Virus record (IMG/VR): IMGVR_UViG_3300042296_000700
Coordinates: 43,128 to 107,127 of that record
Length of the DNA: 64,000 bases
Source of the DNA: a virus
Strand: one strand, 5' to 3'
Both the position numbers and the translations under genes were made by a program. Within the stretch, counting starts at the first letter, position 1. Each line of letters starts with the position of its first letter. A model generated the notes under the pieces. It saw only the letters and a program-made list of their open reading frames with translations, searched no databases and had not been told where the DNA came from. Positions 13,552-46,440 of this stretch are shown piece after piece.

Positions 13552-13559
13552 GGAATATA

Positions 13560-14360: not shown

Positions 14361-14370
14361 TGTGTGAAAA

Positions 14371-15648: not shown

Positions 15649-15650
15649 TT

Positions 15651-15938
15651 ATGGCTTATGATTTTCTTAGTGAACCGCAGTTTTATGGTGGTGGAGGAAG
15701 CGAGCCTCAGGCTGCTGGTCTTCATATTGGTATCGTAAAGACTGTTAGTTCAGCCACCAAATCTGTGATGGTTCTTGTCCCTACTATTAACGAATCTGAC
15801 ATGATTGGTCCTTGTCGTATTGTTGTGCCTTTGGTTTCTGGTGCGACAGTTGTTATGCCAGCAATCAACTCAAAAGTTGTTGTTGGATTTCTTGACGGTA
15901 GTTATGACCAGATGGTCTGTTTCGGGAAACTGCTTTAG
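15651..15938 (+). CDS. Baseplate spike / gpV-like OB-fold protein (short)
   Basis: GIVKTV, MPAINSKVVVGFLDG motif; position. Confidence 0.65.
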   Translation: MAYDFLSEPQFYGGGGSEPQAAGLHIGIVKTVSSATKSVMVLVPTINESDMIGPCRIVVPLVSGATVVMPAINSKVVVGFLDGSYDQMVCFGKLL

Positions 15939-15976
15939 ATAATGAAAATACTTGATTGTTGTGAGAGAATTGATTG

Positions 15977-16279
15977 ATGGACACACTATTACTACCCATG
16001 TCTTTTAGTTCTGGGCAAGCAAAAGTTCTAACTGACGGTACGGATGAGTATTACGCAACATTACTGTCAAGACTTATGCAGATTGAACCAGGCGAATACC
16101 CGATTTCAATCTATTTTGGTGTCCCAGACCCCACATTTAGCAACATTAATCGTGCATCACTTGTAGAATTGGCTTCACAGTTTGTCCCTGAAATTGATAT
16201 ATCTTCTATTGAAAACACGATTGACGAAGATAATCCAGGCGAAGAAACTCTACTCATCTTCTTTGAGAGGGCAGAATGA
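15977..16279 (+). CDS. Baseplate wedge gp25-like protein
   Basis: PGEYPI...FGVPDPTF motif. Confidence 0.75.
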   Translation: MDTLLLPMSFSSGQAKVLTDGTDEYYATLLSRLMQIEPGEYPISIYFGVPDPTFSNINRASLVELASQFVPEIDISSIENTIDEDNPGEETLLIFFERAE

Positions 16280-17604
16280 CATCCCCAGATTTTAGACAAT
16301 ATATTGACTTAACCGTCTTTGACACAACACCACAAAAACTGTATGACGATTCCGTAACATACGCACAGACAGCAATGCCAGAGTTTGACCCACGTATTGG
16401 AACAATTGAAGACGCCCTATTGCAGTCAATGTCCTTCGTTGGTGCGGTTCTTGCCACTGGAATCAACAGGCTTCCAAACGGTTTAATGGAAGGCATTTTG
16501 CGTCTTGTTGGATTCACTCGGAACGAAGCAACATTCGCTACAGGTTCAGTACTAATAACAACAAGCATTAACACTGGAGCAGTTATTCCTGCTGGCACCG
16601 TCGTTACATACGACGTGCTTGACGGGGACATTGTTACCTCTTATCCGTTCGCCACCGATACCGACTTAATCATCCCATTAGGTTCAGACAGCGGAACGAT
16701 TGCCGTTACCGCCACTACAGCAGGAAAGTATCCTTCACTTCTTTCAGGGCAAGCACTGACACTCGTGTCACAAGTTCAATATGTGTTGACTACAGCATTG
16801 ACCGCCGACATAGCCGTTGGTACTGACACAGAAACACAAACAGCATACTTTAATCGTGCCTCACAATATCTTGCATCTTTAAATACGACTCTCGCCACAG
16901 CGTCACATATGACAAACTATATTAGTTCAAACTATACTTCTGTTCCAGTTTTTAAAGTCTATGATTTAATGAACAGTTCAAACATGTTGTTTGCGACCGC
17001 AGACGCACCAGGCTATGTCACCGTTGCTGTCTGCAACACGGACGGTGCTGCTTTAACTACGGACGTCAAAAATGAACTTGATGCAGACTTGGAAGACAAG
17101 TGTGTTGCTGGGTTGGTTATAGACGTTGTCAACATGCTGAATTTTGGTGTCACAGTAACCATTGCCATAGATGTTTTGGACGGCTTCACTCCAGCGACAG
17201 TTCAAGCAGACGTTGCCACAGTCATTGAGTCATACCTAAGTTATACGGGTTGGGATTTTAGCGAAACAATCAACAAAAACATTTTAATTGCCAAAGTGTC
17301 TCAAGTTTCTGGCGTAAAATTTGTTTCATCTTTATCTATAAATACAACAAAAACAGCAGGTAGTTTTGTTACTGGAACTAGTTATACTATTGCTACTGCT
17401 GGTACCACAAACTTTACGTTAATTGGCGCAGCAAACAACACTGTTGGCACCGTTTTTACCGCAACTGGTCCTGGTGCTGGAACTGGCACGGCAACCGCCA
17501 CTTTCACTACACCCGAAATAGTGAGCAGCGTGGCAACTGGCAACATCACAATTCTTCGCGCTGGCTTAATCCCAGTTGGAGACGCAGAAGTAACGGTTAT
17601 CTGA
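16276..17604 (+). CDS. Baseplate J-like wedge protein
   Basis: IPAGTVV, GTDTET..Y..R, PGYVTVAV, VSQVSGVKFV. Confidence 0.85.
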   Translation: MTSPDFRQYIDLTVFDTTPQKLYDDSVTYAQTAMPEFDPRIGTIEDALLQSMSFVGAVLATGINRLPNGLMEGILRLVGFTRNEATFATGSVLITTSINTGAVIPAGTVVTYDVLDGDIVTSYPFATDTDLIIPLGSDSGTIAVTATTAGKYPSLLSGQALTLVSQVQYVLTTALTADIAVGTDTETQTAYFNRASQYLASLNTTLATASHMTNYISSNYTSVPVFKVYDLMNSSNMLFATADAPGYVTVAVCNTDGAALTTDVKNELDADLEDKCVAGLVIDVVNMLNFGVTVTIAIDVLDGFTPATVQADVATVIESYLSYTGWDFSETINKNILIAKVSQVSGVKFVSSLSINTTKTAGSFVTGTSYTIATAGTTNFTLIGAANNTVGTVFTATGPGAGTGTATATFTTPEIVSSVATGNITILRAGLIPVGDAEVTVI

Positions 17605-30466: not shown

Positions 30467-30825
30467 TGGCTGTAACACAAAAACGTCTTGCTGGTCCTGC
30501 CCAGTTGACTGCAACAACCGCTGTCTATTACACGACACCAATCAGCACTACCACGATTGTCAAACAAATTATTCTAACGAACACTACTTCGTCAGCAAAA
30601 ACTGTGACTGTTCGTTTGAAACCCCTTGGTGTGGCTGAGGCTGCCACACACGACATTATTAGCGGTATGACTATCAACGCTAACGAAACTATGGCTTTCA
30701 ACTGTTCGCTAGTTCTCAACAACAATGGTTCTACAGCAAACGCAACTAACAGCGACCAGTTGACAGCATTGTGTAGTTCGGCAACGTCAGTCAATATTAC
30801 GATTGTAGGTATTCAAGAGGCATAA
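30466..30825 (+). CDS. Small virion beta-sandwich protein (paralog-like to 27148)
   Basis: YTTP..TTTIVKQIILTNTT motif. Confidence 0.65.
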   Translation: MAVTQKRLAGPAQLTATTAVYYTTPISTTTIVKQIILTNTTSSAKTVTVRLKPLGVAEAATHDIISGMTINANETMAFNCSLVLNNNGSTANATNSDQLTALCSSATSVNITIVGIQEA

Positions 30826-31532
30826 TGGCTGGCATGGTTCGCTACCCGGCGTTGAACGCCATGGCGTCATTTATTGATGCCCCTGACTCCGTCTATGGCA
30901 CTGGCAATGACGGTTCTGTAACCATGGACGGAAGTACTATCGTTATCGGTATTACGCCCTCTTCAAATGTTTATACGATGGCTCGCGACACATATTTCTA
31001 TAATCTGACCATTAGTTCGGGTGTGCGTTTAAACCCAAATGGTTATCGTGTTTTTGTAAAGAATCAGTTAATACTCGGTAGCAGCGCAATGATTGGTTAT
31101 ACGACAGGTTTTGCTTCTGCTGGTTCTATCCAACAGGGTGGGGCAGCAAGCACTCCAGTTACTCATAGTCTTGGAGGTGCGTCGCAAACACAAACTGCCA
31201 CATTGCCAATCGCTTCGCTTGGCGGCTCGCAATACTTTCAACAGCCGTTGCAGGCAATAGATGGTTTTTCTGTTACCGCATCTGGCGGACCAACATTTTT
31301 ACGCGGTGGCGCTGGAGGAGTAGGTCAGGCTGGTGGAGGGGTAGTAATTCTTGCTGCCCGCTACATCTCTGGACCGACATCTGGGAGCGCAACAATTTCT
31401 GCTAAAGCAACATCTCCTGCTGGTGGTGGAGTGATTCTTCTTGTTTCATCTGGCGCAACATTGCCTACGACTGTAACAACAGACGTGACTGGTTATGCCT
31501 CTGGGATATTCTACTATATGCAGTTGGTATAA
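30825..31532 (+). CDS. Gly-rich virion protein
   Basis: DSVYG.G.DG, NGYRVFV, GGGVVIL motifs; paralogous to part of the next gene. Confidence 0.65.
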   Translation: MAGMVRYPALNAMASFIDAPDSVYGTGNDGSVTMDGSTIVIGITPSSNVYTMARDTYFYNLTISSGVRLNPNGYRVFVKNQLILGSSAMIGYTTGFASAGSIQQGGAASTPVTHSLGGASQTQTATLPIASLGGSQYFQQPLQAIDGFSVTASGGPTFLRGGAGGVGQAGGGVVILAARYISGPTSGSATISAKATSPAGGGVILLVSSGATLPTTVTTDVTGYASGIFYYMQLV

Positions 31533-31533
31533 A

Positions 31534-34500
31534 ATGGCTGCGCTTGAAAGAACAGGAACAAATAGGGAACTGTACAGGATTGGAGATATCGGTCCTGGTG
31601 GTGGGACGATTTTCCTTACCCCAAGTTCAACAGATAACACTACTGGTAAATATTTTGAAGTCGCTCCTCCCACGTGGACGGGGTCACTTGGGAATACGTT
31701 AACGCGAACGAACCTATGTAAAACAAGTTCTTTTGATGGTGGTGTTGGTTTATGGACTGCCAATAGTGGGGCAGTAATCACAACTGATACAAACGAGCAT
31801 CTTGTCAGTGGAAGTTCACTAAAAATTACGTCTTCAACAAGTAATTACAACAACGCCATACATGCCCTGATACCCATTACTGCTGGTCAGAAATATGTTT
31901 ATAGTGCGTACGTAAAAAATGTTGGCGGAAATACGCGACCTGTTTACCTCGCTGTTATTTGGTTTGCATCAAACGGTTCAACTGTTGTAGGAAGCGAAAT
32001 GAACTCTGTTTCTCAGGGAGACCTTGCTATTGCAGACGGCTGGCGGCGCAGATGGGTTGCTGGAACAGCACCAATTGGCTCTGCATTCGCTCGTCTGCAT
32101 ATTTTAAGTGGCACCACGGGTCTGACAACAGCCGACATCACGCGTGCTGACGGTGTTTTGTTTGAACAAAGTTCTTTTTCTTTTTTATATCCGTTTTTTG
32201 ATGGTGTGAAATCATATTTAGATTCGTCAATGGCATATACGGCTTTACCAAACCCTGGTACCGCAGATATTAGAACTCTTACTAATGAGGGTTACAGTAT
32301 TATTCCAGAAACACGAGCGTGGTCTGGCAGTGCATATAACTCGTCATCAACGAGCACATGGATTGGTGGGACAGCAACACCAAAACTTAGAACAAGCAAC
32401 GTTTCTTTAACTGGATACACTTTATATCCTGATATTGGATTAGGGGCGTCACAGACAGATATCATATTTAATTTTGGTTCACAAGAAAATACTGCAGCAT
32501 ATGTTGCAAAACAATATTCTGGCGGTGGTTATACAGACTGGTTTCTTCCATCAACATATGAACTCAAGGCACTCGGTGAGGCGCAATTTGCCACTTATAG
32601 CGTCGGGGTAGTTTCTACCTCTACGACTACATATGCCACTTCTTCTACTTCTTCTTCTATATTGATGAGAAGTTGGGTTGGTAGCACAAGTAGTAATGTG
32701 GGTATTTATGAGCCAGTCAATGTGCGTCCAGTACGAATGTTTTCTGCAACACCGTCAACGCATGTGCAACGTGCAGGTAACGACTCGGTGTATGGGAACG
32801 GATATGACGGCGATGTCACCATTCTTGGTTCAGGACAAATAACTTATCTTTCCAGAGATATGTATTACAACAATTTGGTTATACCATCGCAAACAATGCT
32901 TCACACTAATGGTTACAGAGTTTTTGTTCGTAACAAACTAACTGTTAATGGATACATTGGCGTCAGCAGTGGTTCAAACACGATATTTGGTTTACTTTAT
33001 GGAGAACCAAGCGCAGTTACGTCAAGGACAGTCTCTGGAACGACATCCACGAATGCTATTACATATCGTATTGGCGGCAAGGGTGGGGGCGCTACCGCTG
33101 ATGGTACGAGTCTTCTCCCTACAGGAATTCTGTATTCTTTAGATGTTGCTACTAAAGGTTTGTTCATTGACCCTAATAACAGTCAGTTGACACCTTTGAC
33201 TGGTGGTGCTCTTGGTACGCAAGGAAGTCAAGGAACAACATATCCAGCGTTAACTGATTCTGATACTTGGTCTGGTAAAACTGCTCCTACGTCTTGGCCT
33301 AGCCAGTCTGGTAATGCGGGTAATGCGGGTAATGCGGGTGGTGCTGGTGGAACTGTTGTTGCTGGTGCGTTAGGTGGTGCTGGTGGATATCCACCAAATG
33401 CCCATACTGGCACTGGTACCACTCCTGGTGGAAGAGGCAGTACAGGTAACTCTGGTAATCCGGGTACGGCTGGAAATCCTGGTGCGACAGGCAACTCAGG
33501 AAATCCTGGTACGGCAGGCAACCCTGGTACGGCAACTGGAGCAAATCCGAGTGTAGGTGGTGCTGGAGGTTCGGCTGGGCAAGGTGGCGCTGTCGTTGTT
33601 ATTGCAGCCAAAACTATTACTGGTACTGGAAGAATTGTTTCGCTAGGTATTTCTGGCGCATTAGGTTCTGCTGGAACTACTGGTACTGGTGGTACGGCTG
33701 GTACGGCTGGTACGGCTGGAAACGCAGGTACTACTGGCGCAGCGGGCAATGCTGGTAGTGCTGGCACGGCTGGAAATACTGGAGACGCGGCACCAGGTAT
33801 TAACACAAGTCCATATCATGCTCATCACCGTCTCGGTTCTGGACATATGAATACTCAGTACGCAAATGGCGGAGGGCATGATAGCGAACCTGGCGCGCAT
33901 ATTCCGCATGCTCATCTTTCGCAGGATTATCATGACCAGCATCGCGGCTCGCGACTTCATTTTCATATGCCTCACGGCGGCAATACGGTAAACCATAACC
34001 CTCCTGTAGTTACGAGTAACAAGCCATTGACACATGGACCAGGTACGGTCTTTCATAATCCTTCACACATTCACCATGCAGGTCACACGCACAACCCGCA
34101 TCATGATGCTCCTCACGGACATAACCATCACACACATAGAAACGATGGGGCGACTTTACACAGTCCTCATACTTTCGGACCACACCACGGTGCTGCAAAC
34201 GGGCAGGGCAATGACGGAACTCATGCCTACTACTACTGGGGCGGACATCACGGAACACAACATGCAGGCGGACCTCACACCCATGGGTCGGCAGGCAAAC
34301 ATATCGGGTCACCCCACACTGGTACTCATTATGCAGGAGGTGCTGGTGGCGCAGGCGGACCCGCTGGCATTGCTGGAACGGCAGGAACAGGTGGTACGGG
34401 GGGCACAGGGGGTCTCGCTGGACCAGGAGGCACTGCGGCACCCGCACAACCTCAGGGCGGCACAGGTAAGCGTGGGGGTGCAGGCGGTGGAGGAGGTATC

Positions 34501-34623
34501 ATTGTGATAACCGATAGCACCTCATTGGGAAGCGTAACTACCGACGTTACTGCTGGTGCAACTCAAGACTCAGATTTCAACACAGCCTCTTCAGGGTTTG
34601 TATACTTAATTCAGAACACATAG
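31534..34623 (+). CDS. Multidomain fibre/adhesin: Lcl/DUF1566-like + CBM-like + Gly-X-X repeats + His-rich insert
   Basis: IGDIGPGGGTIF...GYTDWFLPS..EL...VRPVR; long GXX runs; about 41 His in 174 aa; start placed at ATG 31534. Confidence 0.7.
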   Translation: MAALERTGTNRELYRIGDIGPGGGTIFLTPSSTDNTTGKYFEVAPPTWTGSLGNTLTRTNLCKTSSFDGGVGLWTANSGAVITTDTNEHLVSGSSLKITSSTSNYNNAIHALIPITAGQKYVYSAYVKNVGGNTRPVYLAVIWFASNGSTVVGSEMNSVSQGDLAIADGWRRRWVAGTAPIGSAFARLHILSGTTGLTTADITRADGVLFEQSSFSFLYPFFDGVKSYLDSSMAYTALPNPGTADIRTLTNEGYSIIPETRAWSGSAYNSSSTSTWIGGTATPKLRTSNVSLTGYTLYPDIGLGASQTDIIFNFGSQENTAAYVAKQYSGGGYTDWFLPSTYELKALGEAQFATYSVGVVSTSTTTYATSSTSSSILMRSWVGSTSSNVGIYEPVNVRPVRMFSATPSTHVQRAGNDSVYGNGYDGDVTILGSGQITYLSRDMYYNNLVIPSQTMLHTNGYRVFVRNKLTVNGYIGVSSGSNTIFGLLYGEPSAVTSRTVSGTTSTNAITYRIGGKGGGATADGTSLLPTGILYSLDVATKGLFIDPNNSQLTPLTGGALGTQGSQGTTYPALTDSDTWSGKTAPTSWPSQSGNAGNAGNAGGAGGTVVAGALGGAGGYPPNAHTGTGTTPGGRGSTGNSGNPGTAGNPGATGNSGNPGTAGNPGTATGANPSVGGAGGSAGQGGAVVVIAAKTITGTGRIVSLGISGALGSAGTTGTGGTAGTAGTAGNAGTTGAAGNAGSAGTAGNTGDAAPGINTSPYHAHHRLGSGHMNTQYANGGGHDSEPGAHIPHAHLSQDYHDQHRGSRLHFHMPHGGNTVNHNPPVVTSNKPLTHGPGTVFHNPSHIHHAGHTHNPHHDAPHGHNHHTHRNDGATLHSPHTFGPHHGAANGQGNDGTHAYYYWGGHHGTQHAGGPHTHGSAGKHIGSPHTGTHYAGGAGGAGGPAGIAGTAGTGGTGGTGGLAGPGGTAAPAQPQGGTGKRGGAGGGGGIIVITDSTSLGSVTTDVTAGATQDSDFNTASSGFVYLIQNT

Positions 34624-34631
34624 GAGAAAAA

Positions 34632-34874
34632 ATGCCTTTATTTGACGAAATTGACACTAAGCAGCGTCTACAGATTTTGCGTGGAACTTACAAATCTTTA
34701 GAAATTGAACTTTTTGAAGTTTTAACACGTCTGGGAATTGATGTTGATGACTACACTTATGGTGAGCATCCAGAATTTGCTGATTCAGAAGATAACTGGA
34801 ATAAACGTCGCGTTATTGAACTAGAAGCAACTTTGGCTACAATTAAGGCAAAGATTGACTCGCTGGCGGCATAA
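34632..34874 (+). CDS. Small helical hypothetical protein
   Basis: AGGAG RBS; C-terminal coiled coil. Confidence 0.6.
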   Translation: MPLFDEIDTKQRLQILRGTYKSLEIELFEVLTRLGIDVDDYTYGEHPEFADSEDNWNKRRVIELEATLATIKAKIDSLAA

Positions 34875-34877
34875 GTA

Positions 34878-35297
34878 ATGCAAAGAGTCTTCTATGTGCC
34901 TGCATCAACACCAATTACTGCTGAACTAAGCGAGCAAGCGGAATTGCTTGCTCTATCTGTGCTGCATGGTGAAAGTGCTTTATCGCGTTATGTTGACTTT
35001 GACCGCGACATTGCGCAGCCTATTTCTTTGCCATCCGAAAAAATATGCCTTTTCGCTAACGAAGTCCCAATAATGCTTCATCAAAGCATTGAGGTAACTA
35101 ATGATTTTGTTGATATGCGTGACGGCGTAACCCTTGTTTTGAATGGTAAAAAAATTATTGAGCCGTTGATACTTGAAAAACACTACGCTCGTTATGCCAT
35201 TGAGTGCACTGGATACGGTGTTCAAGTGTTTGACATATTTGATAAATCTATGCGAATTTTAGAACACGGGGAGTATTATGTCGTTAACCCTGAGTAA
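34878..35297 (+). CDS. Hypothetical protein
   Basis: ORF within the operon. Confidence 0.55.
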   Translation: MQRVFYVPASTPITAELSEQAELLALSVLHGESALSRYVDFDRDIAQPISLPSEKICLFANEVPIMLHQSIEVTNDFVDMRDGVTLVLNGKKIIEPLILEKHYARYAIECTGYGVQVFDIFDKSMRILEHGEYYVVNPE

Positions 35298-35865
35298 ACC
35301 AGCGCCATGTATTTTTGTTTACGAAAATGCTTTGACCGATGGCGAAAAGTTTATTTCAATGCTTGAAGAGCAAACCAATGACGAATGGTCACCACTGTCT
35401 TGGGATTATTCAAAAACTGGTTCAGGACAAATCAGTGAGTACCGCTCATCGCGCATATGTTCACTGTTGGACATTACACGCCCCTGTCCAAGTACGCCAA
35501 TCTCAGATTTGTTAAATAAATCTATTCTCAAAGATATAGATACGTGCCTTAGTGATTACAGCACATATCACGGGATTACTGCGTTTATCGGCAATGAAGG
35601 TTGGATTGTTCTCAAATATGAGGGTCAAGCGCAATATCGCACCCACTGGGACCACGCACCAGATAACGCCAGAACAGTTTCTATTGTGGCATTCCCTTAC
35701 TCAACAACCAAGGTTGGCGGAGAACTAACATTCCCGCATTTCGGGATAACAATTAAACCCAAAACTGGTTCAGTAGTTATATTTCCATCTAATTTCCCCT
35801 ACACGCATACGGCGCATCCAGTTGAAGATGGTGTCAAGTATTCACTTGTTACGTGGTTGAGGTAG
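35278..35865 (+). CDS. 2OG-Fe(II) oxygenase, prolyl-4-hydroxylase-like
   Basis: YRTHWD (HxD), GGELTFP, FPSNFPYTH.A.PV.DG.KYSLVTW. Confidence 0.9.
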   Translation: MSLTLSKPAPCIFVYENALTDGEKFISMLEEQTNDEWSPLSWDYSKTGSGQISEYRSSRICSLLDITRPCPSTPISDLLNKSILKDIDTCLSDYSTYHGITAFIGNEGWIVLKYEGQAQYRTHWDHAPDNARTVSIVAFPYSTTKVGGELTFPHFGITIKPKTGSVVIFPSNFPYTHTAHPVEDGVKYSLVTWLR

Positions 35866-35867
35866 AG

Positions 35868-36128
35868 ATGGAATACGAAAACATTCCAAATGAAAGATTT
35901 GCATGGCTCGGCATTGCACCGCCACCAGATGGTGTTGTTGTTCCAGAAGATAATCCCGTCCCAATTGTTAAGGACATATTGCCACCTAATCAAGTGACTG
36001 GCGCAGACGAAGGTCTTGGTATATTCAGGTGGCTTATGGCAGACGAAGATGAGCGACAAGACACATTGTCAGGGTGTAGATTGCTTGACAACTTCGTTTA
36101 TATGCAAATACCAAAGGAAGACGATTGA
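35868..36128 (+). CDS. Hypothetical protein
   Basis: ORF within the operon. Confidence 0.5.
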   Translation: MEYENIPNERFAWLGIAPPPDGVVVPEDNPVPIVKDILPPNQVTGADEGLGIFRWLMADEDERQDTLSGCRLLDNFVYMQIPKEDD

Positions 36129-36358
36129 TGGCTATAACATTTGACTACTCTGATAGTAACAATCATATTCAGGCTTTAACGGCACAGGTTAAAACTTTGA
36201 TTGATGTTGACTACGATTTTGTTGACGCTAACAACGTTGAGGCTTTTAGGGTTGCTGCAAAAGCAGTGAATGAACCAGTGCGCAGTAAATTGCTTCACAT
36301 GCTCAACTTTATTGTTTTTAATAGTCAAGTAAATAGCGTGTATGGAGATAAACAATGA
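36128..36358 (+). CDS. Hypothetical protein
   Basis: ORF within the operon. Confidence 0.5.
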   Translation: MAITFDYSDSNNHIQALTAQVKTLIDVDYDFVDANNVEAFRVAAKAVNEPVRSKLLHMLNFIVFNSQVNSVYGDKQ

Positions 36359-37098
36359 GTGAGATTAATATTGTCACAGTCGGGAATGCGACTCATCGCA
36401 TAAGTTCATTTTCGTGTCCTCCACAGTTGCCCTCTATTATTGAGTTCAAGGATTTTAGTCGTGCTATCTATTCTCGGTTGACAGAATCAGATAAATTTGA
36501 TTTACGTACTTCTTCACGTTCTGAAGAGTTTCTTGCTTATGGTTTGGTAGGAGCCCCTGGTGGCGAGGACATTGCCCCAGTTGTTTGGAGTTCACATGGG
36601 CAAGCAGAAATGTATGGACGGCTATGTGGGGCAAAGGACGTTTTTATACATAGCGTTCCGTACGCTATTTATTTTGCTGCCCATAACTACGAAAATGTTT
36701 ATGTTCTAAATTGTGCTTCAACACTTATTGCGGGTTCGCATGATACTGCGAGTGATGCAGATATCACAAATGTAACAACACTTTCATGGGACGATGCTTA
36801 CAACAATATGCCCGAACTTGATATGGCTGTTGTGATGTATTCACATATCTGTGCCGACGATTCCTTATTTGATGCAATCATGAACGCTATGAAGCCAAAC
36901 GGAGTAGTTATCATCCACAACTCAAGCAATGGTGGTGCCCTGTATGAGGTACTTGGAGACAAGAAGCCTCTAGATATGGCTGCACAGGTTTCTCTTTCCG
37001 CTCTGCTACACAAAAAGATTCTTGACAGAGGCGATTTTTTGACGCAACATTTTCAGGGCTGGGTTTCTCACACTGTCTGCGTTAAACTGCCATCATGA
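36355..37098 (+). CDS. Divergent class I SAM-methyltransferase-like protein
   Basis: C-terminal ELDMAVV...AMKPNGVVIIHN pattern; the motif I glycine loop is not clear. Confidence 0.4.
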   Translation: MSEINIVTVGNATHRISSFSCPPQLPSIIEFKDFSRAIYSRLTESDKFDLRTSSRSEEFLAYGLVGAPGGEDIAPVVWSSHGQAEMYGRLCGAKDVFIHSVPYAIYFAAHNYENVYVLNCASTLIAGSHDTASDADITNVTTLSWDDAYNNMPELDMAVVMYSHICADDSLFDAIMNAMKPNGVVIIHNSSNGGALYEVLGDKKPLDMAAQVSLSALLHKKILDRGDFLTQHFQGWVSHTVCVKLPS

Positions 37099-38585
37099 CT
37101 AACGAACACGAACCTATAAGTTTTGGGATTGTTGGCTCTGGTACGGCAGGGCTAATTTCTGCAATCATGCTCAGGCAGGCATTTCCGTTATCTAAAGTAA
37201 CGATTATTTCCTCAAGTACAATCGGCATCATTGGGGTCGGAGAAGGAAGCACTGAACATTGGCGCGAATTTATGAATTTGTGCGATATTCCGCTTGAACA
37301 GATGTTAGTGAAAACAGCCGCTACACATAAATACGGTATTCGTTTTGAAGGTTGGTCAGGTTCGTTCCCTGATTATTTTCATAGTGTTTCTGGCGATGAA
37401 CAACTTTACGGGTGGGGTCATTACCCGACATATGCGGGCATTCTTGAGAATGGCGACTCATTAACGAGCCAGACGAGCAGTATTGGTTTAATTCAAAACA
37501 AAATTAAACGCGAGAATTTACATTCCAATACTAACCAATACCATTTTGACACTTTCAAACTTAATAACTATTTTACCGAACTATGCTTTAAGCGTTCCAT
37601 CAAAATGATTGATGGTCAAGTTACCGATGTTAAGCGCCACAGTGAAACAGGAAACATCTCTAGCGTACTTCTTGATAACGGAAGTTCTGTAGAAGCAGAC
37701 CTTTGGATTGACGCAAGTGGATTCTCCCGTGTATTAATGAACAAACTAGATGCTTCTAATTGGAATTCATTCTCTGACTACCTCCTCGTTGATTCTGCAA
37801 TAGCCGCCCCATCCGAATCATCATCAGACGGAATACGTCCATACACGAGAGCAATAGCCAAAGATGCTGGATGGATATGGGAAATCCCAACACAAGAACG
37901 GCGTGGAAATGGATACGTTTACTCATCGCAGTTTGTTTCTGACGATGAGGCTATTGCAACTTTAGAGAAACAAATCGGACCGCTATCTATTGCTCCACGA
38001 ACATTCAAATTTGATGCAGGTCATGTTAAGGAAGTTTGGGTCAAGAATTGTATGGCTATCGGTTTGGCTGCTGCTTTTGTTGAACCGCTAGAAGCAACAT
38101 CAATTGGTAGTGCAATTCAGCAAATAAAATATGCAATACCGTATTTTGCGTCATTTGAGCAAAAACATACGGCATCGCAAAAGCATTACAACAAACTGTT
38201 CACAACAATGATGGATAACATTTTGACGATGATTCGCCTTCATTACATATCGGATAGGCGTGATACTCCATTCTGGACTGCTTCTTCTGAAATGAAAATT
38301 AATGACTCGCTTCAAGAACTTCTTGACCTTTGGCAAGAGAGAGTTCCATGTCGTAATGACGTAGGAACAATCAATGGGGAGATGTTCCATGCACCTCACT
38401 TATTCCACGTTGCACAAGGACAAGGTGTTTTAAATAGTCGCGCAGCAACCTTGATGATTGACAATTTTAATCTTCGCAAACAAGTGGAGTTAGATATTTC
38501 AAATCGTCGCCATGCCCGTTTTAATCATGAGTTGGTTGACCATCGTGAATCGCTTGATATGCAATTTGAGGACAAACTACTGTGA
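37095..38585 (+). CDS. Flavin-dependent halogenase (tryptophan halogenase/PrnA family)
   Basis: GSGTAG FAD motif, VGEGST, ATHKYGIRF catalytic Lys, GWIWEIP (WxWxIP), FVEPLEAT. Confidence 0.92.
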   Translation: MTNEHEPISFGIVGSGTAGLISAIMLRQAFPLSKVTIISSSTIGIIGVGEGSTEHWREFMNLCDIPLEQMLVKTAATHKYGIRFEGWSGSFPDYFHSVSGDEQLYGWGHYPTYAGILENGDSLTSQTSSIGLIQNKIKRENLHSNTNQYHFDTFKLNNYFTELCFKRSIKMIDGQVTDVKRHSETGNISSVLLDNGSSVEADLWIDASGFSRVLMNKLDASNWNSFSDYLLVDSAIAAPSESSSDGIRPYTRAIAKDAGWIWEIPTQERRGNGYVYSSQFVSDDEAIATLEKQIGPLSIAPRTFKFDAGHVKEVWVKNCMAIGLAAAFVEPLEATSIGSAIQQIKYAIPYFASFEQKHTASQKHYNKLFTTMMDNILTMIRLHYISDRRDTPFWTASSEMKINDSLQELLDLWQERVPCRNDVGTINGEMFHAPHLFHVAQGQGVLNSRAATLMIDNFNLRKQVELDISNRRHARFNHELVDHRESLDMQFEDKLL

Positions 38586-39388
38586 GCCTGCGGAAAATTG
38601 ATAAGTATAGCGATATTAAAGTTCCTGAGGGAAAGATTGTTATTGTCCCTTGGGATAACCGTCTCCTTGAACTGCCTCCTTATTCTAACGATAGGGCTCC
38701 AGTTCCTCAGTGGATTAAAGATTCTCCTAGCACGCAAGGTTCAATTAGGCGCTGTGCAGCAACAATGGATTTTGTTTCTTCTGGCATAACAATCCCTGCT
38801 TGGACAAACTTTCGTTTTAACAAAACCGAAGGTGAAGATTCATGGGATTTTACTTGCGACCAGTTTGATGGCTTTGGGGCACATGAACATTTTGTGAATC
38901 AACCGTTTGCTTTTGAGCAAACAGGCTCATGTCCTATGACTAAAGTGCGGGCGATGGAAAATGTGGGGTACCCAAAGTTGGTTAACCCTTTTAGAATCAT
39001 TACTGCACCAGGTTGGTCAACAATGATTTTGCCAGTTCTTTATGAGCCATCACGACATTTTTCTGTATTACCAGGCATTGTAAACACCGACTATTATCAT
39101 GAATCAAACTGTGTGCTTAATTTGCTTGGCAAAGAGTCATTCACTATCCCGTGGGGCGCACCCTTGATGCATCTAATTCCAATTAAAAGAAGCACGATGG
39201 CGCACAGTATTGAATTCCTTGATGAAAGTGCATTCAAGTATGTTGTTGGGCGCGGATTTGGTTCTGGTGCTTTAAAACCCACTGGGGATGGATGGTCTTC
39301 TGCTCGTCTTTATCGCGGTTATAGGTTTAGGCGCGATGCAGAACTCGCTGAAGATAGCCAGAAAAAAAAGTGGTGGAAAACTAAATGA
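38582..39388 (+). CDS. Conserved phage protein associated with oxygenase clusters (DUF6065-like)
   Basis: C...D...G..IP.W, K..NPF.I.T.PGWS, LPGIVNTDYY, G.PL.H.IP.KR. Confidence 0.55.
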   Translation: MSLRKIDKYSDIKVPEGKIVIVPWDNRLLELPPYSNDRAPVPQWIKDSPSTQGSIRRCAATMDFVSSGITIPAWTNFRFNKTEGEDSWDFTCDQFDGFGAHEHFVNQPFAFEQTGSCPMTKVRAMENVGYPKLVNPFRIITAPGWSTMILPVLYEPSRHFSVLPGIVNTDYYHESNCVLNLLGKESFTIPWGAPLMHLIPIKRSTMAHSIEFLDESAFKYVVGRGFGSGALKPTGDGWSSARLYRGYRFRRDAELAEDSQKKKWWKTK

Positions 39389-40080
39389 TTTTCCCTTCTG
39401 GCGTTGGTGGCGCTATTGCTTACAAAGATAATGTTTTAAGCGATTCGTTGTGCGCTGACATTATTGAATATGCGGAAACACACAGCAGCATGATGTACGA
39501 AGGTCCAACTATTAGTGGAATTAACAAGCATATAAAGAATTGTTACGATTTTTCTTTGTCGTATTACAGTGACCATGCAGAAACTGATGAGCAGCGAAAA
39601 GAATTGGCTGCTCTTAATGATTTGGTGTTTGAATCTTTTTCTCCTGCATTGGAAGAATATTGCTCATACTACGAAGGCTTAAATAACTGGACTAACAGAT
39701 ACGACACTGGATATCAATTTCAAAAATATGCCGCCAATGAAGGGTTCTACAAGCCTCATTGTGATGGCGGAGTATATGAGGCTGAGGGTCTTGGAAATCG
39801 GGTACTTGGTGTCGTCATGTATCTGAACACCGTAACCAAAGGTGGGGGGACAAACTTTCCGCTGCATGAAGTTACTGTTGATTCTGTTTGTGGACGTATT
39901 TCGTTTTTCCCTGCTAACTTCACGCATCCTCATGCTGGGTTGATGCCGCTGTCTTCTCCCAAGTACATTATTAGTACTTTTTGCTATACGGTTCCGAGTG
40001 CCCCTAGTGTGGATACTGCGGTTGCGGAACTTGCTTTGAACTATGATGAGCAGTTCAAGCAGACGCCAGATGCATTATAA
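39385..40080 (+). CDS. 2OG-Fe(II) oxygenase, prolyl-4-hydroxylase-like
   Basis: YKPHCD, MYLNTV..GGGT.F, FPANFTHPH.G..P....KYI. Confidence 0.9.
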   Translation: MIFPSGVGGAIAYKDNVLSDSLCADIIEYAETHSSMMYEGPTISGINKHIKNCYDFSLSYYSDHAETDEQRKELAALNDLVFESFSPALEEYCSYYEGLNNWTNRYDTGYQFQKYAANEGFYKPHCDGGVYEAEGLGNRVLGVVMYLNTVTKGGGTNFPLHEVTVDSVCGRISFFPANFTHPHAGLMPLSSPKYIISTFCYTVPSAPSVDTAVAELALNYDEQFKQTPDAL

Positions 40081-40122: not shown

Positions 40123-40305
40123 ATGACAGAACAACTTAATCCCCAAATCATTATTGATGAGTTGGTAAAGCGAGTCAATTCCTTGACGATTGAAAACGTC
40201 GTGTTGTCGGCACGAGTACAAATGCTGGCAGACCTCGTTAATTCGCTTAACCATTCACACGATGACGAGGTGGTTTCGGTAATTGGAGAACCAACGGAGG
40301 ACTAA
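40123..40305 (+). CDS. Small coiled-coil protein
   Basis: GGAG RBS; L..RVNSLT.ENVVL.A heptads. Confidence 0.6.
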   Translation: MTEQLNPQIIIDELVKRVNSLTIENVVLSARVQMLADLVNSLNHSHDDEVVSVIGEPTED

Positions 40306-40308
40306 CAA

Positions 40309-42387
40309 ATGCCTGGTGCCAACGTATTTGCCTACGATGGCACTGGCTATAAGCCCACCAACCGCTCCCTAACGGCTGCTATAGCGTCACGTACTGCCTC
40401 TGCATACACGGCGGTTTCGTACGCTTATAAGTTAAGTAAAGTGCCTGTAGCAATATCTGGCGCTGCACTCGGTACTGGAGCGACAAACTACACGACATCC
40501 ACACCTCATGGGTTTGTCAATGGCGAAATTATTGCTATTACTGGAATAACTCCAAGTTCTTATAACACAACAGCCGCAGTCATGGTGGTTAATACTACCC
40601 AATTTTATATTGTGGGATTTAACGGTACAACGGGTGGCGCTTACGCATCTGGCGGTGTTGCCACTATTGTTACTAACGTCAAGGCAGTTAGTCAGATTTG
40701 GCAGGGTTTCCCACCTACTCCGTCACAAGTAACTTTCGTACAGAGTTTTACGGGCACTGCCCCAGACTCAACAAACCGTACGACTATTTCGTGGACATGC
40801 GCAGCAACCACTACTCTTAACCGATTTGAGTTATACCGAAAAGTTGGTGCTGGAGCATTCACTGCTGTCAACACAAATATAGGAGCGGGTGTGCGTTCAT
40901 ATGTTGTGGATGGACATGCGGCTGCGACTACATACACTTATTTTGTGAAGTCGGTAGCGAACTCTGGTCTTACTTTAAGCGGTGCAGAAAACTCGTTTAC
41001 TTTGACGGCGTCGGCTCAACCAACCGACTTTATTTTGCAGCAAGGAGTTACTTCTAATTCTGCTACTTGGCGCGCACGTTTTCCTGCTGGGGTATTCCAA
41101 AAAATTCAGTGGTACAACCTTTCTTATGATGGCGTAAATCTGTATTGGGAATTGATAACTTCTGCCACTTTGGCTAGTAATGCTACGACTAATGACTATA
41201 CGCGGACTGGTTTGGCTGAACGGGCTGGATATTGGGCGCGATATGTTTTAACTAACTACAATAATCATACGACGGGCTCAGATGTAGAAAATCAAAACTA
41301 TAAATCAATCACAACTCTTAATGCTCCGCCTAATTCACCATCGCTAAATGGGATTAGTACTGGTCCTGCTCAAAACCCTATACCAGCAGTGGGTTCAAAC
41401 TCTGGATTCGCAACATCTGGTGAGGTGTTGAAATATATTGGTGTCAACTATACGTTGGCAGCGGATACTGATTTCTTGAACTGTGAAGTTTATTTGTATT
41501 CAGGTACGTCAGCCCCAACAACTTTCGTTAGTAGTCAAGTGTTTACTACGGCACCAGGGGCTGCTCAGGCTGCGTGGTTTTACGTTTTACCTAACACTAA
41601 ATATTGGGCTCTCGTCAGACAACGCGACAACAACGGTGGTGAAACTGACAACGCTACTGGCTGGCAGAGTGTTACTACCCCCATCGTCTACTCTTTCACG
41701 AACGCTAACGCTTTTGACACTGCTACGGGAACAACGTATTCCGAAAGCGCTGCAACGACGGGGATGTATACAGGTGTTAATTATTTAACAACTGCTATCA
41801 CTTATGACAGTAATTATAGTGGGACGTTATTGCACGGCGGAAGCACAGCAAACACCACTGACAGAAGTTTGACCTCATATCTTTCTTGGAAAGTTGTTAG
41901 TTCTGCAACTTCGGGTCAGGATACTGTTGGAAACATCAATTTTGCGATGAGAGACGCCCGCGATAGTTTTCTTGACTACGGGATTTATGCAACATGGCTG
42001 GTTTTTTCTGTAAGAAAGCATAACGTTGTTCTTCAAATGTATAACTCTGCTGGCACATGGCTTGGCGGAGGGGCGTCGTCACTAGTAAACACAAGAAATA
42101 ATCAGCCAACTGTTATTGCAAGTTTAAATAACTTTGATTGGGACCATAACTTCAGTTTTGCTACTCAGTCTGTAAAATCTACGGCTGCTAAAGGCGCGAC
42201 AACATATGGTGGGGCAGGCAACGGAGGAACACCTTCTTGGAATATGTATTTATCAATAAGAAACCCAGTTAACGTGAGCCCCCCTTATGTTCACCTTACG
42301 GAATATGAAAGAATAGGACTTCAGTACACTACTGAAACTTCCGTCACAACCTACACAACCACCCCAGCAGTAACAAGATATTATTAA
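40309..42387 (+). CDS. Virion protein with FCCH-like and fibronectin-III-like domains
   Basis: PHGFVNGE.I.ITGI, ISW...FELYR...TYTYFVKS. Confidence 0.65.
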   Translation: MPGANVFAYDGTGYKPTNRSLTAAIASRTASAYTAVSYAYKLSKVPVAISGAALGTGATNYTTSTPHGFVNGEIIAITGITPSSYNTTAAVMVVNTTQFYIVGFNGTTGGAYASGGVATIVTNVKAVSQIWQGFPPTPSQVTFVQSFTGTAPDSTNRTTISWTCAATTTLNRFELYRKVGAGAFTAVNTNIGAGVRSYVVDGHAAATTYTYFVKSVANSGLTLSGAENSFTLTASAQPTDFILQQGVTSNSATWRARFPAGVFQKIQWYNLSYDGVNLYWELITSATLASNATTNDYTRTGLAERAGYWARYVLTNYNNHTTGSDVENQNYKSITTLNAPPNSPSLNGISTGPAQNPIPAVGSNSGFATSGEVLKYIGVNYTLAADTDFLNCEVYLYSGTSAPTTFVSSQVFTTAPGAAQAAWFYVLPNTKYWALVRQRDNNGGETDNATGWQSVTTPIVYSFTNANAFDTATGTTYSESAATTGMYTGVNYLTTAITYDSNYSGTLLHGGSTANTTDRSLTSYLSWKVVSSATSGQDTVGNINFAMRDARDSFLDYGIYATWLVFSVRKHNVVLQMYNSAGTWLGGGASSLVNTRNNQPTVIASLNNFDWDHNFSFATQSVKSTAAKGATTYGGAGNGGTPSWNMYLSIRNPVNVSPPYVHLTEYERIGLQYTTETSVTTYTTTPAVTRYY

Positions 42388-45645: not shown

Positions 45646-46440
45646 ATGAGCCTCCCATACATCAAACTCGTAGTCCCAACTGCACTCAAGCAGTATAAGA
45701 ACGGTCAGTTGGCTGACAGCGTTTTGGCTTCCGTTAAAACTGGCGGAAAGATGTACGCACCAGTCGCAGCGCAATTCAATAAGTTGTACGACGCCGCCCT
45801 GGCTGCTGGTCATAAACTCAGGAATGTTGGCGACTACCGTTCGTTTGAAGGTCAACTCGCAATGTTCCGTGACCGCTATGTGCTTGAAAATACTGGTACT
45901 GGCGTAACCCGCACTTTTGAAGGAAAGACTTGGTACCTCAAGAAGGGCAAGGCTCCTTCTGCGGCTCCAGACCCAACAGGTCTCAAAGGCTCAAATCATG
46001 GCTGGGGGCTGGCTATTGACCTCGGATACGAGTCTCGCGGTCAGTTGCTTGGCATGGGTGGCGCTTGTTTTGACTGGATGTGTGCAAACGCTCCCAAGTA
46101 CGGTTTCTATCTCCAAGGTAACGATAAGAAATCTAAAGAGTTTGAAGCATGGCACTGGCAGTATGCTCTCGGAGATGCATCGCCTGATGGCTCGGCTCCA
46201 GCCGCTGCTCCTGCTGCTGCTCCTGTAGCAGGCGGACTTCACTTTGATTACCCTGGCTTTGATGTCAAAAAAGGTTACAAGGGCGATGTCGCGAAACTGG
46301 TACAAGCAGTTATCGGCGCTAAGCCCGATGGCGACTTCGGTGCTAAGTCTGAGGCTTCACTCAAGGCATGGCAAACAAGTAAGGGTCTTCACGCTAACGG
46401 CGTAGTTTGCAAAGATTGCTGGAAGGTAATGTTCGGCTGA
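45646..46440 (+). CDS. Endolysin: M15 (VanY-like) peptidase plus peptidoglycan-binding domain
   Basis: YRSF..Q, SNHGWGLAID, EAWHW; C-terminal DGDFG..S...LK.WQ...GL.ANGVV. Confidence 0.9.
   Translation: MSLPYIKLVVPTALKQYKNGQLADSVLASVKTGGKMYAPVAAQFNKLYDAALAAGHKLRNVGDYRSFEGQLAMFRDRYVLENTGTGVTRTFEGKTWYLKKGKAPSAAPDPTGLKGSNHGWGLAIDLGYESRGQLLGMGGACFDWMCANAPKYGFYLQGNDKKSKEFEAWHWQYALGDASPDGSAPAAAPAAAPVAGGLHFDYPGFDVKKGYKGDVAKLVQAVIGAKPDGDFGAKSEASLKAWQTSKGLHANGVVCKDCWKVMFG

What the first reader, a model, noticed from the sequence alone, without database searches (positions are those of the whole stretch)
31534..40080. His-rich Gly-X-X fibre followed by a dedicated tailoring-enzyme cassette: candidate virion post-translational modification system
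Seen: within the virion-gene array, a 1029-aa fibre has long GXX runs with Pro in the Y position (GNPGTAGNPGATGNSGNPG) and a 174-aa insert with about 41 His. It is followed by tightly coupled genes for two P4H-like 2OG-Fe(II) oxygenases, an intact flavin-dependent halogenase, a methyltransferase-like protein, a DUF6065-like protein and several small ORFs; fibre genes then resume. Established: P4Hs hydroxylate X-Pro-Gly; PrnA-like and 2OG genes cluster in cyanophages and are usually labelled auxiliary metabolic genes. Inference: here they are late genes that hydroxylate, halogenate or methylate the adhesin in a RiPP-like way, tuning receptor or metal binding or protease resistance. No flavin reductase is visible, so a host enzyme would be needed.
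Basis: partly seen in the sequence, partly recalled or inferred. Interest (0 to 1): 0.8.

Follow-up and report, generated by a model that had tools for sequence, protein, structure and literature searches.

The report
Phage fibre with dedicated tailoring enzymes
A glycine- and histidine-rich phage tail-fibre gene is always followed, in about 70 related phages and in several distant marine cyanophages, by a halogenase, a dUTPase-fold protein and prolyl-hydroxylase-like oxygenases, which suggests, without proving it, that these "metabolic" phage enzymes chemically modify the fibre tip.

Summary
Window 31534-40080 encodes a 1029-aa Gly-rich fibre with a 174-aa segment holding 41 His. After it come two small ORFs, a P4H-like 2OG oxygenase, an intact flavin-dependent halogenase (HAL), a dUTPase-fold protein (c268, the "DUF6065-like" gene) and a second oxygenase. 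All lie on one strand with 4-20-nt overlaps.

New here:
- Linkage is invariant. Of 71 distinct fibre homologues with at least 6 kb downstream, 71 have HAL, 71 have c268 and 68 have the oxygenase.
- One phage carries two deeply diverged copies of the whole unit.
- In one clade the enzyme block is inverted but still abuts the fibre.
- A similar order (tail fibre, Gly-rich proteins, small protein, halogenase, usually c268-like, 2OG oxygenases) recurs in six T4-like cyanophages. One is Syn10, where the halogenase is VirX1 itself.

The best reading (about 0.5) is a fibre-plus-tailoring module acting on a glycine-rich adhesin tip. Tyr and His are always present. No direct evidence of modification exists. 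A cargo or small-molecule pathway remains a serious rival.

The scan had noted this same stretch before, on this genome only.

The parts
30825..31532 (+). p235: short paralogue of the fibre core. It has the same N-terminal domain and the 'GGGVV..A..I.G' motif but no Gly/His expansions, and it always lies directly upstream of the fibre.
   Evidence: BLASTP p235 aa 21-84 vs FIB core, 45% identity, E 1e-12; present upstream of FIB in the related loci
31534..34623 (+). FIB: 1029-aa glycine-rich tail-fibre/adhesin candidate. The N-terminal ~405 aa (CBM_4_9 at aa 60-141, Lcl_C-like at 321-401) is an extension absent from the closest relative. The core (aa 406-1029) is conserved in all relatives.
   Evidence: (L005 fibre starts at query residue 406)
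33811..34332 (+). His-rich hypervariable segment of FIB (aa 760-933): 41 His, 9 HxH, bracketed by Gly-repeat blocks. Its length and His count vary from 11 to 108 among relatives.
   Evidence: AF2 pLDDT about 30 in this segment against above 90 in the flanking Gly blocks
34632..34874 (+). c80: about 80-aa protein that reads as helical; a same-sized gene lies at the same position after the fibre in relatives (63 distinct sequences, of which only 2 show BLAST similarity to c80). Candidate fibre chaperone (inference).
34878..35297 (+). c139: conserved 129-151-aa protein of unknown fold (68 unique homologues). It travels with the enzymes in the inverted cassette.
   Evidence: no PDB, Pfam or Atlas identification
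35278..35865 (+). OGa: P4H-like 2OG-Fe(II) oxygenase, with HxD...H and Lys retained.
   Evidence: PF13640 1.5e-11; alignment to B. anthracis P4H 3itq/5hv0, E 1.9e-5; present in 68/71 relatives
35853..36128 (+). c91: small Pro-rich ORF found only in the two closest relatives.
36125..36358 (+). c77: small ORF found only in the closest relatives.
36355..37098 (+). c247: accessory protein, possibly a class I methyltransferase fold without a canonical SAM motif. Present in a minority of relatives.
   Evidence: no Pfam or NCBIfam hit; Atlas lead 0.89-0.90; 9 unique homologues
37095..38585 (+). HAL: flavin-dependent halogenase with all catalytic motifs intact.
   Evidence: PF04820 4.6e-105; alignments to 9luq, BrvH 6frl, PrnA, RebH and VirX1 6qgm; 71/71 relatives
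38582..39388 (+). c268: dUTPase-fold protein, a constant partner of HAL. It keeps the motif III Asp and Tyr, but the motif IV Arg and Gln are replaced.
   Evidence: AF2 pLDDT 88; VIA Z 10 with the top 22 hits all dUTPase or dCTP deaminase; 13/36 relatives hit Pfam dUTPase; profile alignment; HAL-c268 distance correlation 0.90
39385..40080 (+). OGb: second P4H-like 2OG-Fe(II) oxygenase, an accessory gene present in 16/71 relatives.
   Evidence: PF13640 7.1e-9
40123..42387 (+). d60 and d692: a small protein that reads as coiled-coil, plus a 692-aa Ser/Thr-rich protein. These give the downstream context and are presumed structural; this was not verified.

Best explanation
This is a conserved 'adhesin plus tailoring' module of an uncultured aquatic myovirus lineage. 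FIB is a glycine-rich-domain tail-fibre protein. Its variable segment, which lies between Gly-repeat blocks where known glycine-rich adhesins carry their receptor-binding loops, is expanded into a His-rich and probably metal-binding stretch. The genes co-transcribed behind it are two small conserved proteins (likely chaperones or adaptors), a P4H-like 2OG oxygenase, a flavin-dependent halogenase and its dUTPase-fold partner, with optional extras (second oxygenase, MTase-like protein, and a P450 in relatives). I infer that these act in the infected cell's cytoplasm on the newly made fibre, hydroxylating and halogenating side chains of the tip before or during trimer assembly. Tyr and His are the only aromatic targets present in every homologue. 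The host would supply FADH2, 2-oxoglutarate, Fe(II) and halide. Shown: gene content, intact catalytic motifs, tight coupling, invariant linkage, unit-wise duplication and inversion, and recurrence in T4-like cyanophages including the VirX1 locus. Inferred: that the fibre is the substrate, which residues are modified, and what the modification does (metal or receptor binding, stability).
For: The genes lie on one strand with 4-20-nt overlaps from c139 to OGb, and no intergenic terminator-like site separates them. HAL motifs are intact, and the OGa/OGb triads are retained. Three independent anchors (HAL, p235, FIB N-domain) gave about 180 loci. Among 71 distinct fibres with at least 6 kb downstream, HAL is present in 71/71, c268 in 71/71 and OGa in 68/71. 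Contig 3300042291_001557 carries two colinear modules at 33-57% identity. Each module clusters with a different single-module clade in p235, OGa, HAL and c268 alike. In L143 and L145-147 the cassette is inverted but still next to FIB. Marine and actinobacterial-MAG contigs show the same block. In six T4-like cyanophages, Gly-rich 250-316-aa tail proteins are followed by a small protein, one or two HAL genes and 2OG oxygenase arrays; a c268-like gene follows HAL in four of them, while S-SZBM1 and S-WAM1 have an unidentified 149-156-aa gene there. The Syn10 copy is VirX1 itself, a trimeric FDH with a large open active site and no known natural substrate or gene cluster (PMC8407142). Glycine-rich domains are receptor-binding fibre tips with hypervariable distal loops in S16 gp38 and Pam3 gp24 (PMC9608196).
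Against: There is no direct evidence of any modification. All relatives in the freshwater lineage may simply inherit the gene order. The end of a fibre operon is a common parking place for cargo genes. Six other halogenase-bearing phages (P-SSM2, S-SCSM2R, S-PM2, S-H38, S-MbCM6, HTVC008M) do not place it beside Gly-rich proteins. The window's HAL is closer to those (36-40%) than to the fibre-linked cyanophage HALs (24-30%). The c268 partner has a nucleotide-hydrolase fold with the catalytic Asp kept, which suits a small-molecule substrate. X-Pro-Gly and Trp are not conserved in the fibres. The fibre fold is unresolved: AF2 mean pLDDT is 63 and the best structural Z is only 5-6.
Confidence: 0.5

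Rival explanations
1. Cargo or auxiliary-metabolic island. The halogenase, dUTPase-fold protein and oxygenases make or alter a small molecule, or a host envelope component, and sit behind the fibre genes only because that junction tolerates insertions and the order was inherited.
For: Published readings treat cyanophage prnA/2OG clusters as AMGs or secondary-metabolite systems (PMC1079782; PMC7824862; PMC9964418). Six phages carry HAL away from Gly-rich proteins. In distant relatives L033/L036/L040 the block lies between the last tail genes and the lysis genes. VirX1 halogenates many free small molecules in vitro.
Against: Linkage is 71/71 with no loss. The whole unit, fibre included, is duplicated with both enzyme sets kept at 33-47% identity. 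The cassette can invert without leaving the fibre. The same neighbours recur in a different virus family with HAL only 24-30% identical. No biosynthetic core enzymes are present.
Confidence: 0.27
2. Non-covalent assembly or loading factors. The conserved proteins, above all the presumably trimeric dUTPase-fold c268 together with c80 and c139, serve as chaperones, scaffolds or metal-loading factors for the His-rich trimer. The enzyme folds would be partly co-opted, and no stable covalent mark would be left.
For: Fibre genes are usually followed by chaperones (Pam3 gp25, PMC9608196). c80 and c139 are universal and of unknown fold. c268 has lost the motif IV Arg and Gln of true dUTPases. dUTPases and VirX1 are trimers, as fibres are (dUTPase: established knowledge; VirX1).
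Against: HAL, OGa and OGb keep every catalytic residue over 43-91% sequence divergence. That is not expected for proteins reduced to scaffolds.
Confidence: 0.1
3. Nucleotide or DNA modification. The dUTPase-fold protein and the halogenase act on a pyrimidine nucleotide (for example C5 halogenation), and the oxygenases act on bases.
For: c268 has a dUTPase fold with the motif III Asp and Tyr retained. No canonical dUTPase is found in the contig. HAL and c268 co-vary tightly, r 0.90. In P-SSM2 and S-PM2 the halogenase lies a few kb downstream of nrdAB.
Against: The position is inside the late virion operon. The unit is co-duplicated with a fibre. The oxygenases are of the P4H type, not TET/JBP or AlkB. 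No kinase, transferase or polymerase partners are present. No such chemistry is known for flavin-dependent halogenases.
Confidence: 0.05

Closest known systems
Cyanophage PrnA-like halogenase / 2OG-Fe(II) oxygenase clusters, including VirX1 of Syn10 (PDB 6QGM)
   Same: The enzyme families are the same. In Syn10, S-CREM1, S-RIM44, Sf-CH3, S-SZBM1 and S-WAM1 the order matches: Gly-rich tail proteins, small protein, halogenase, 2OG oxygenases, with a dUTPase-fold gene after the halogenase in four of the six.
   Different: A different virus lineage (not T4-like; sheath phrog_23; HAL 24-40% identical). There is one long fibre with a His-rich insert instead of several 250-aa Gly-rich proteins, and linkage is invariant. 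The literature labels these genes AMGs or antibiotic-related, not fibre-linked.
Glycine-rich-domain adhesin tips (Salmonella phage S16 gp38, PDB 6F45; cyanophage Pam3 gp24 with chaperone gp25)
   Same: Blocks of Gly-rich motifs flank a hypervariable, presumably distal segment. A small gene follows the fibre (PMC9608196).
   Different: Only weak structural similarity was obtained (Z 4.0 to 6F45). The His-rich insert of 174 aa has no counterpart, and those phages have no tailoring enzymes beside the adhesin.
T4 gp37 needle with HxH-coordinated iron (from my own knowledge, not tested)
   Same: Many HxH motifs occur in a fibre tip: 9 in 174 aa.
   Different: There is no sequence similarity, the His density is far higher, some relatives also carry CC motifs, and metal binding is untested.
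Virus-encoded modification of own structural proteins: mycobacteriophage virion glycosylation and chlorovirus PBCV-1 prolyl 4-hydroxylase (from my own knowledge)
   Same: The concept is the same: a virus carries enzymes that decorate its own proteins. A P4H-type enzyme is involved in PBCV-1.
   Different: Halogenation of a viral structural protein has never been reported to my knowledge. Here the target is inferred from synteny only.
Nereis jaw protein Nvjp-1 (over 25 mol% His, 35 mol% Gly, Zn-hardened, in a halogenated matrix)
   Same: A Gly/His-rich structural protein is associated with metal binding and halogenation (PMC9465683). Halogenated Tyr and His occur in structural biomaterials (PMC8659048).
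   Different: This is an analogy of composition only. There is no homology, and the enzymology in the animal is different and largely unknown.

Membership tests
Flavin-dependent halogenase (Trp_halogenase, PF04820) | Pfam match above the curated cut-off over the full domain | tested here: met
   352.5 bits against a cut-off of 21, residues 11-453
Flavin-dependent halogenase (Trp_halogenase, PF04820) | GxGxxG flavin motif, catalytic Lys, WxWxIP, and the conserved Glu | tested here: met
   GSGTAG, THKYGIRFEGW, GWIWEIP and FVEPLEATSI align to the same motifs of 9luq and 5hy5
Flavin-dependent halogenase (Trp_halogenase, PF04820) | Halogenating activity and free tryptophan as substrate | not testable with these tools
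   No assay is possible. Four partner fibres contain no Trp, and the protein is 496 aa, in the size range of BrvH/9luq-type enzymes.
P4H-type 2OG-Fe(II) oxygenase (PF13640) | Pfam match above cut-off and the HxD...H iron triad with a 2OG-binding Lys | tested here: met
   OGa 45.5 bits and OGb 37 bits against a cut-off of 27. For OGa, HWD, the distal His and the Lys align to B. anthracis P4H. For OGb, HCD aligns, while the distal His and Lys were read by eye.
P4H-type 2OG-Fe(II) oxygenase (PF13640) | Collagen-type X-Pro-Gly substrate present in the presumed target | tested here: not met
   12 of 71 fibres have no G-x-P-G yet 11 of the 12 keep OGa (L164 lacks it); the window fibre has only 4
dUTPase superfamily (c268) | dUTPase jelly-roll fold | tested here: met
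   AF2 pLDDT 88. VIA Z 10.0 (rmsd 4.8, 127 aligned) to 7pwx, and the top 22 hits are all dUTPase or dCTP deaminase. Foldseek probability 1.00.
dUTPase superfamily (c268) | Five catalytic motifs of trimeric dUTPases | tested here: inconclusive
   The motif III Asp and Tyr are invariant (T169, D170, Y172). The motif IV Arg and Gln align to Pro and His. A motif V-like RGFGxG is a majority feature only. The window protein itself has no Pfam dUTPase hit, while 13/36 relatives do.
DUF6065 (PF19541) | Pfam match at the gathering score | tested here: not met
   The window protein has no hit. 3/36 relatives hit at E 0.16 or worse, and 4/10 wider-family members score 16-21 bits against a cut-off of 26.6.
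Class I SAM methyltransferase (c247) | Family-model match and a Gly-rich SAM-binding motif I | tested here: not met
   No Pfam or NCBIfam hit. The motif region reads VLNCAS, without glycines. There is only an Atlas feature lead of 0.89-0.90.
Collagen triple helix | Long uninterrupted Gly-X-Y repeats passing the Pfam Collagen threshold | tested here: not met
   25.4 bits against a cut-off of 27.2. The longest runs are 11-16 triplets. AF2 models the Gly blocks as part of a compact core, which as a monomer model cannot exclude a triple helix.
Glycine-rich-domain adhesin (S16 gp38 / Pam3 gp24 type) | Lattice of Gly-rich motifs with a hypervariable distal segment; structural similarity to 6F45 | tested here: inconclusive
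   Gly blocks flank the variable His segment in all 37 aligned homologues. VIA Z is only 4.0 to 6f45_D.
RiPP-type tailoring system | Short precursor peptide with a leader, a recognition element and a protease or exporter | tested here: not met
   No family model identified any such component, though no dedicated search for a precursor peptide, recognition element or protease was made. The presumed substrate is a 430-1029-aa structural protein, so the resemblance is functional only.

The most novel reading that the evidence does not exclude
Aquatic myoviruses, both this freshwater lineage and T4-like cyanophages such as Syn9/Syn10, enzymatically halogenate and hydroxylate (and in some relatives perhaps P450-cross-link) the glycine/histidine-rich receptor-binding tips of their own tail fibres. 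The dUTPase-fold protein would act as the halogenase's adaptor. This would be the first enzymatic halogenation of a viral structural protein. It would also give the natural substrate of VirX1 and a reason for the large 2OG-oxygenase arrays of cyanophages.
Probability: 0.35. Interest if true: 0.9.

Novelty: new variant of a known kind. Interest (0 to 1): 0.74.

Why it matters
PrnA-like halogenases and multiple 2OG-Fe(II) oxygenases have been catalogued in cyanophage genomes since 2005. They have been explained as transient, antibiotic-related or 'auxiliary metabolic' genes. VirX1, the only one characterised, has no known natural substrate.

The linkage found here reframes them as likely virion-maturation genes. 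The evidence is an invariant link to a Gly/His-rich fibre, co-duplication with that fibre, and recurrence beside Gly-rich tail proteins at the VirX1 locus itself.

The question becomes directly testable in phages that are already in culture. If confirmed, it adds a new kind of chemistry to phage receptor-binding proteins, which would bear on host range, metal dependence and environmental stability. It would also give enzymologists a protein-directed halogenase system.

Tried and rejected
- **Nucleotide search.** megablast of the 8.5-kb locus against 50,697 phage records found nothing.
- **T4-like identity.** I first took the phage for a T4-like cyanophage. The sheath and tape-measure hits are generic, and the only strong cyanophage link is one virion protein at 45%.
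- **Collagen prolyl hydroxylation.** Rejected as the conserved role of OGa, because G-x-P-G is absent from 12 fibres.
- **Trp as the conserved halogenation site.** Rejected, because 4 fibres have no Trp.
- **c268 as an ordinary dUTPase.** Judged unlikely: the motif IV residues are replaced, the protein is 268 aa, it is duplicated together with the fibre, and it always follows HAL.
- **c268 in cellular genomes.** Only 3 hits were found, all on phage-like contigs in MAGs carrying the same module.
- **c139.** The PDB profile search and the Atlas gave nothing usable.
- **Accessory families in relatives.** The 349-387-aa and 220-238-aa families have no Pfam hit.
- **Fibre model.** Foldseek found no match, and VIA gave only generic beta-solenoid similarity at Z 5-6.
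- **Wider c268 family.** A scan with its alignment failed for lack of a conserved stretch, and a single member found nothing in viral contigs.
- **Distance correlations.** They are reported but not used as proof, because adjacent genes co-vary anyway.
- **Promoter and terminator scan.** It gave no more sites than shuffles would.

Full report
**What is there**

The window is the right-hand 64 kb of a 107-kb IMG/VR virus contig, about 73% complete by CheckV. It is a myovirus with a sheath at 7330-8808 and a tape measure at 10060-13551. A long run of + strand tail and fibre genes ends in a lysis cassette, with the endolysin at 45646-46440.

Inside that run lie these genes:
- p235 (30825-31532)
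- the 1029-aa FIB (31534-34623)
- c80, c139
- OGa (PF13640)
- c91, c77, c247
- HAL (PF04820, 4.6e-105)
- c268
- OGb (PF13640)

Genes from c139 to OGb overlap by 4-20 nt, and FIB to c80 is 8 nt apart. No intergenic terminator-like site separates them.

The His-rich segment (aa 760-933) has 41 His in 174 residues, against 0.9% His in the phage's other large proteins, and carries nine HxH motifs. The Gly-X-Y runs are 11, 16 and 11 triplets long.

**The enzymes**

HAL aligns over its whole length with solved tryptophan-type flavin-dependent halogenases (9luq, BrvH 6frl, PrnA, RebH, VirX1). It keeps GxGxxG, the Lys, WxWxIP and the Glu.

The best solved relative of both oxygenases is the Bacillus anthracis prolyl 4-hydroxylase, and the iron triad is retained.

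c247 has no family hit, only a language-model lead to class I methyltransferases. Few relatives carry it.

- VIA gives Z 10, and the first 22 hits are all dUTPases or dCTP deaminases.
- 13 of 36 family members hit Pfam dUTPase.
- The profile aligns dUTPase motif III (TDYY against SDYRG), but the motif IV Arg and Gln are replaced.
- The wider family is large: 2,457 representatives at E up to 1e-3. It touches DUF6065 only below threshold.

The contig contains no flavin reductase (PF01613) and no canonical dUTPase.

**Linkage in relatives**

I anchored three independent searches of IMG/VR on HAL, on p235 and on the conserved N-terminal domain of the fibre core. I added one search of species genomes with the c268 profile.

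Pooled, there are 84 distinct full-length fibre homologues. Of the 71 with at least 6 kb of downstream DNA, 71 have HAL, 71 have c268, 68 have OGa and 16 have OGb within 9 kb. A gene the size of c80 sits at the same position after the fibre in nearly all relatives (63 distinct sequences, only 2 with BLAST similarity to c80), and c139-like genes are universal (68 distinct sequences).

The fibres themselves vary widely. They are 388-748 aa long, 14-29% Gly and carry 11-108 His. Some relatives have Cys-Cys motifs in the His block.

The block is not frozen:
- OGa can lie before or after HAL-c268.
- Extra genes of 349-387 aa, an MTase-like gene, or (in L140-type phages) a cytochrome P450 (PF00067, 1.3e-25) are inserted.
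- In one clade the enzyme block, including c139, is inverted yet still adjoins the fibre.

**Two modules in one phage**

The most telling case is contig 3300042291_001557. It carries two colinear copies of s92-s119-p235-FIB-c80-c139-OGa-HAL-c268 (the c268 of the second copy was read on the matching contig L038/L071). The copies are only 57% (p235), 36% (fibre N-domain), 33% (OGa), 47% (HAL) and 34% (c268) identical.

Each copy groups with a different single-module clade, and it does so consistently for p235, OGa, HAL and c268. So the unit is gained and kept as a whole, enzymes included.

HAL and c268 distances correlate at r 0.90. That is higher than HAL with OGa (0.69) or with p235 (0.57). 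Adjacency alone could explain part of this.

**Recurrence outside the lineage**

The c268 family led to T4-like cyanophages. In S-RIM44, Sf-CH3, S-CREM1, S-SZBM1, S-WAM1 and Syn10 the order is:
1. a large tail-fibre gene;
2. two to four Gly-rich proteins of 250-316 aa (21-36% Gly, about 2-14 His), annotated 'tail fiber assembly' or 'collagen-like';
3. a 150-180-aa protein;
4. one or two halogenases;
5. a c268-like protein (in S-SZBM1 and S-WAM1, a shorter unidentified one);
6. two to about ten 2OG oxygenases.

In S-RIM44 and Sf-CH3 the block sits between the fibre and the neck genes.

The second Syn10 halogenase is VirX1 itself, with 1271 bits over the full length of 6qgm. VirX1 is reported as a trimer with a large, accessible active site, a preference for iodide, and no associated gene cluster or natural substrate (PMC8407142).

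These halogenases are only 24-30% identical to the window's. The association therefore spans two virus groups and two halogenase clades.

It is not universal. In P-SSM2, S-SCSM2R, S-PM2, S-H38, S-MbCM6 and HTVC008M the halogenase lies elsewhere, usually with a 2OG oxygenase beside it.

**What the fibre is**

No family model names it beyond sub-threshold or barely passing hits: CBM_4_9 just above its cut-off, and Collagen, Lcl_C and SclB below theirs. The window's copy has a 405-aa N-terminal extension absent from its closest relative.

AF2 on an alignment of 37 homologues gives a confident compact core built from the N-domain and the Gly blocks, and an unmodelled His segment. Structural matches are weak: beta-solenoid adhesins at Z 5-6 and S16 gp38 at Z 4.0.

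Published structures show that glycine-rich domains of S16 gp38 and Pam3 gp24 are receptor-binding tips whose distal loops are hypervariable (PMC9608196). The layout here, Gly blocks around a hypervariable insert, fits that picture. Membership is not shown.

**Interpretation**

The comparative pattern favours a functional unit of fibre plus enzymes. I put about 0.5 on covalent tailoring of the fibre tip.

Twelve fibres lack any G-x-P-G, and 11 of them keep OGa. Four lack Trp and keep HAL. Tyr (at least 8 per fibre, with a recurrent Tyr just after the His block in the homologues read by eye) and His are the only constant aromatic candidates.

A compositional analogy exists in Gly/His-rich, metal-hardened and halogenated biomaterials such as the Nereis jaw. 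It is an analogy only.

The rivals and their weights:
- A cargo or small-molecule pathway parked behind the fibre genes: 0.27.
- Non-covalent assembly or metal-loading roles: 0.10.
- Nucleotide or DNA chemistry, suggested by the dUTPase fold: 0.05.

Nothing here demonstrates a modification.

**Novelty and literature**

Searches of the open literature found only the AMG, antibiotic or secondary-metabolite readings of cyanophage halogenase and 2OG genes. None links them to tail fibres or to a dUTPase-fold partner.

The host of the window's phage is not established. Two others are binned with a marine gammaproteobacterial MAG.

Noticed in passing
L051:9346-20920 with L037 and L071 (IMGVR_UViG_3300042291_001557): One phage carries two complete, deeply diverged fibre-plus-enzyme modules in tandem (33-57% identity between copies). 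The first fibre is His-rich (55 His). The second is longer (709 aa, 26% Gly) with fewer His.
   Followed up: yes
L140:16132-17379: A cytochrome P450 (PF00067, 1.3e-25) lies two genes downstream of c268 in a subgroup of relatives (L140, L154, L155, L160 type). P450 genes are rare in phages, and here one sits in the fibre cassette.
   Followed up: partly
L143, L145-L147 (about 12000-16400 of each locus): The enzyme cassette (c139, OGa, c268, HAL) lies on the opposite strand to the fibre but is still adjacent. c268 appears to precede HAL in this arrangement.
   Followed up: partly
L193:3320-15128 (Cyanophage Syn10, HQ634191.1 about 107461-119269): VirX1 (CPUG_00131) lies behind two Gly-rich, His-containing 266-272-aa proteins and a second halogenase. 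It is followed by a c268-like gene and by about ten genes of 172-263 aa, of which five gave BLAST hits to neighbours of the S-RIM44/S-CREM1 cassettes (two of these to annotated 2OG oxygenases).
   Followed up: yes
L189:5409-8983 (Pelagibacter phage HTVC008M): A 2OG oxygenase and the halogenase are inserted between the small and large terminase subunit genes, with four more 2OG oxygenases just upstream on the other strand.
   Followed up: no
L033, L036, L040 (about 3-6 kb upstream to 2 kb downstream of HAL): Distant relatives lack p235, FIB and c268. They still place HAL behind a classic GGGGGG-type Gly-rich 260-289-aa protein, a 115-aa protein and a 206-227-aa protein with an HxD...H pattern. 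After HAL come proteins that by eye look sulfotransferase-like and AspH-like, and then the lysis genes. None of this was family-tested.
   Followed up: partly
window 31534-32748: The window's fibre has a 405-aa N-terminal extension (CBM_4_9 and Lcl_C/DUF1566-like) that the 91%-HAL relative L005 lacks. L018, L019 and L090 have it. This looks like domain shuffling at the fibre's proximal end.
   Followed up: partly
window 2795-3958: A phosphoadenosine phosphosulfate reductase-like gene (phrog_2302, 2.6e-72) lies upstream of the tail genes.
   Followed up: no
L001:7383-8923 (P-SSM2, opposite strand, next to its halogenase): Two genes of phrog_3304 ('L-shaped tail fiber protein assembly') and a fragment resembling a virion structural protein abut the P-SSM2 halogenase. 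That locus may therefore not be fully free of fibre-related neighbours either.
   Followed up: partly
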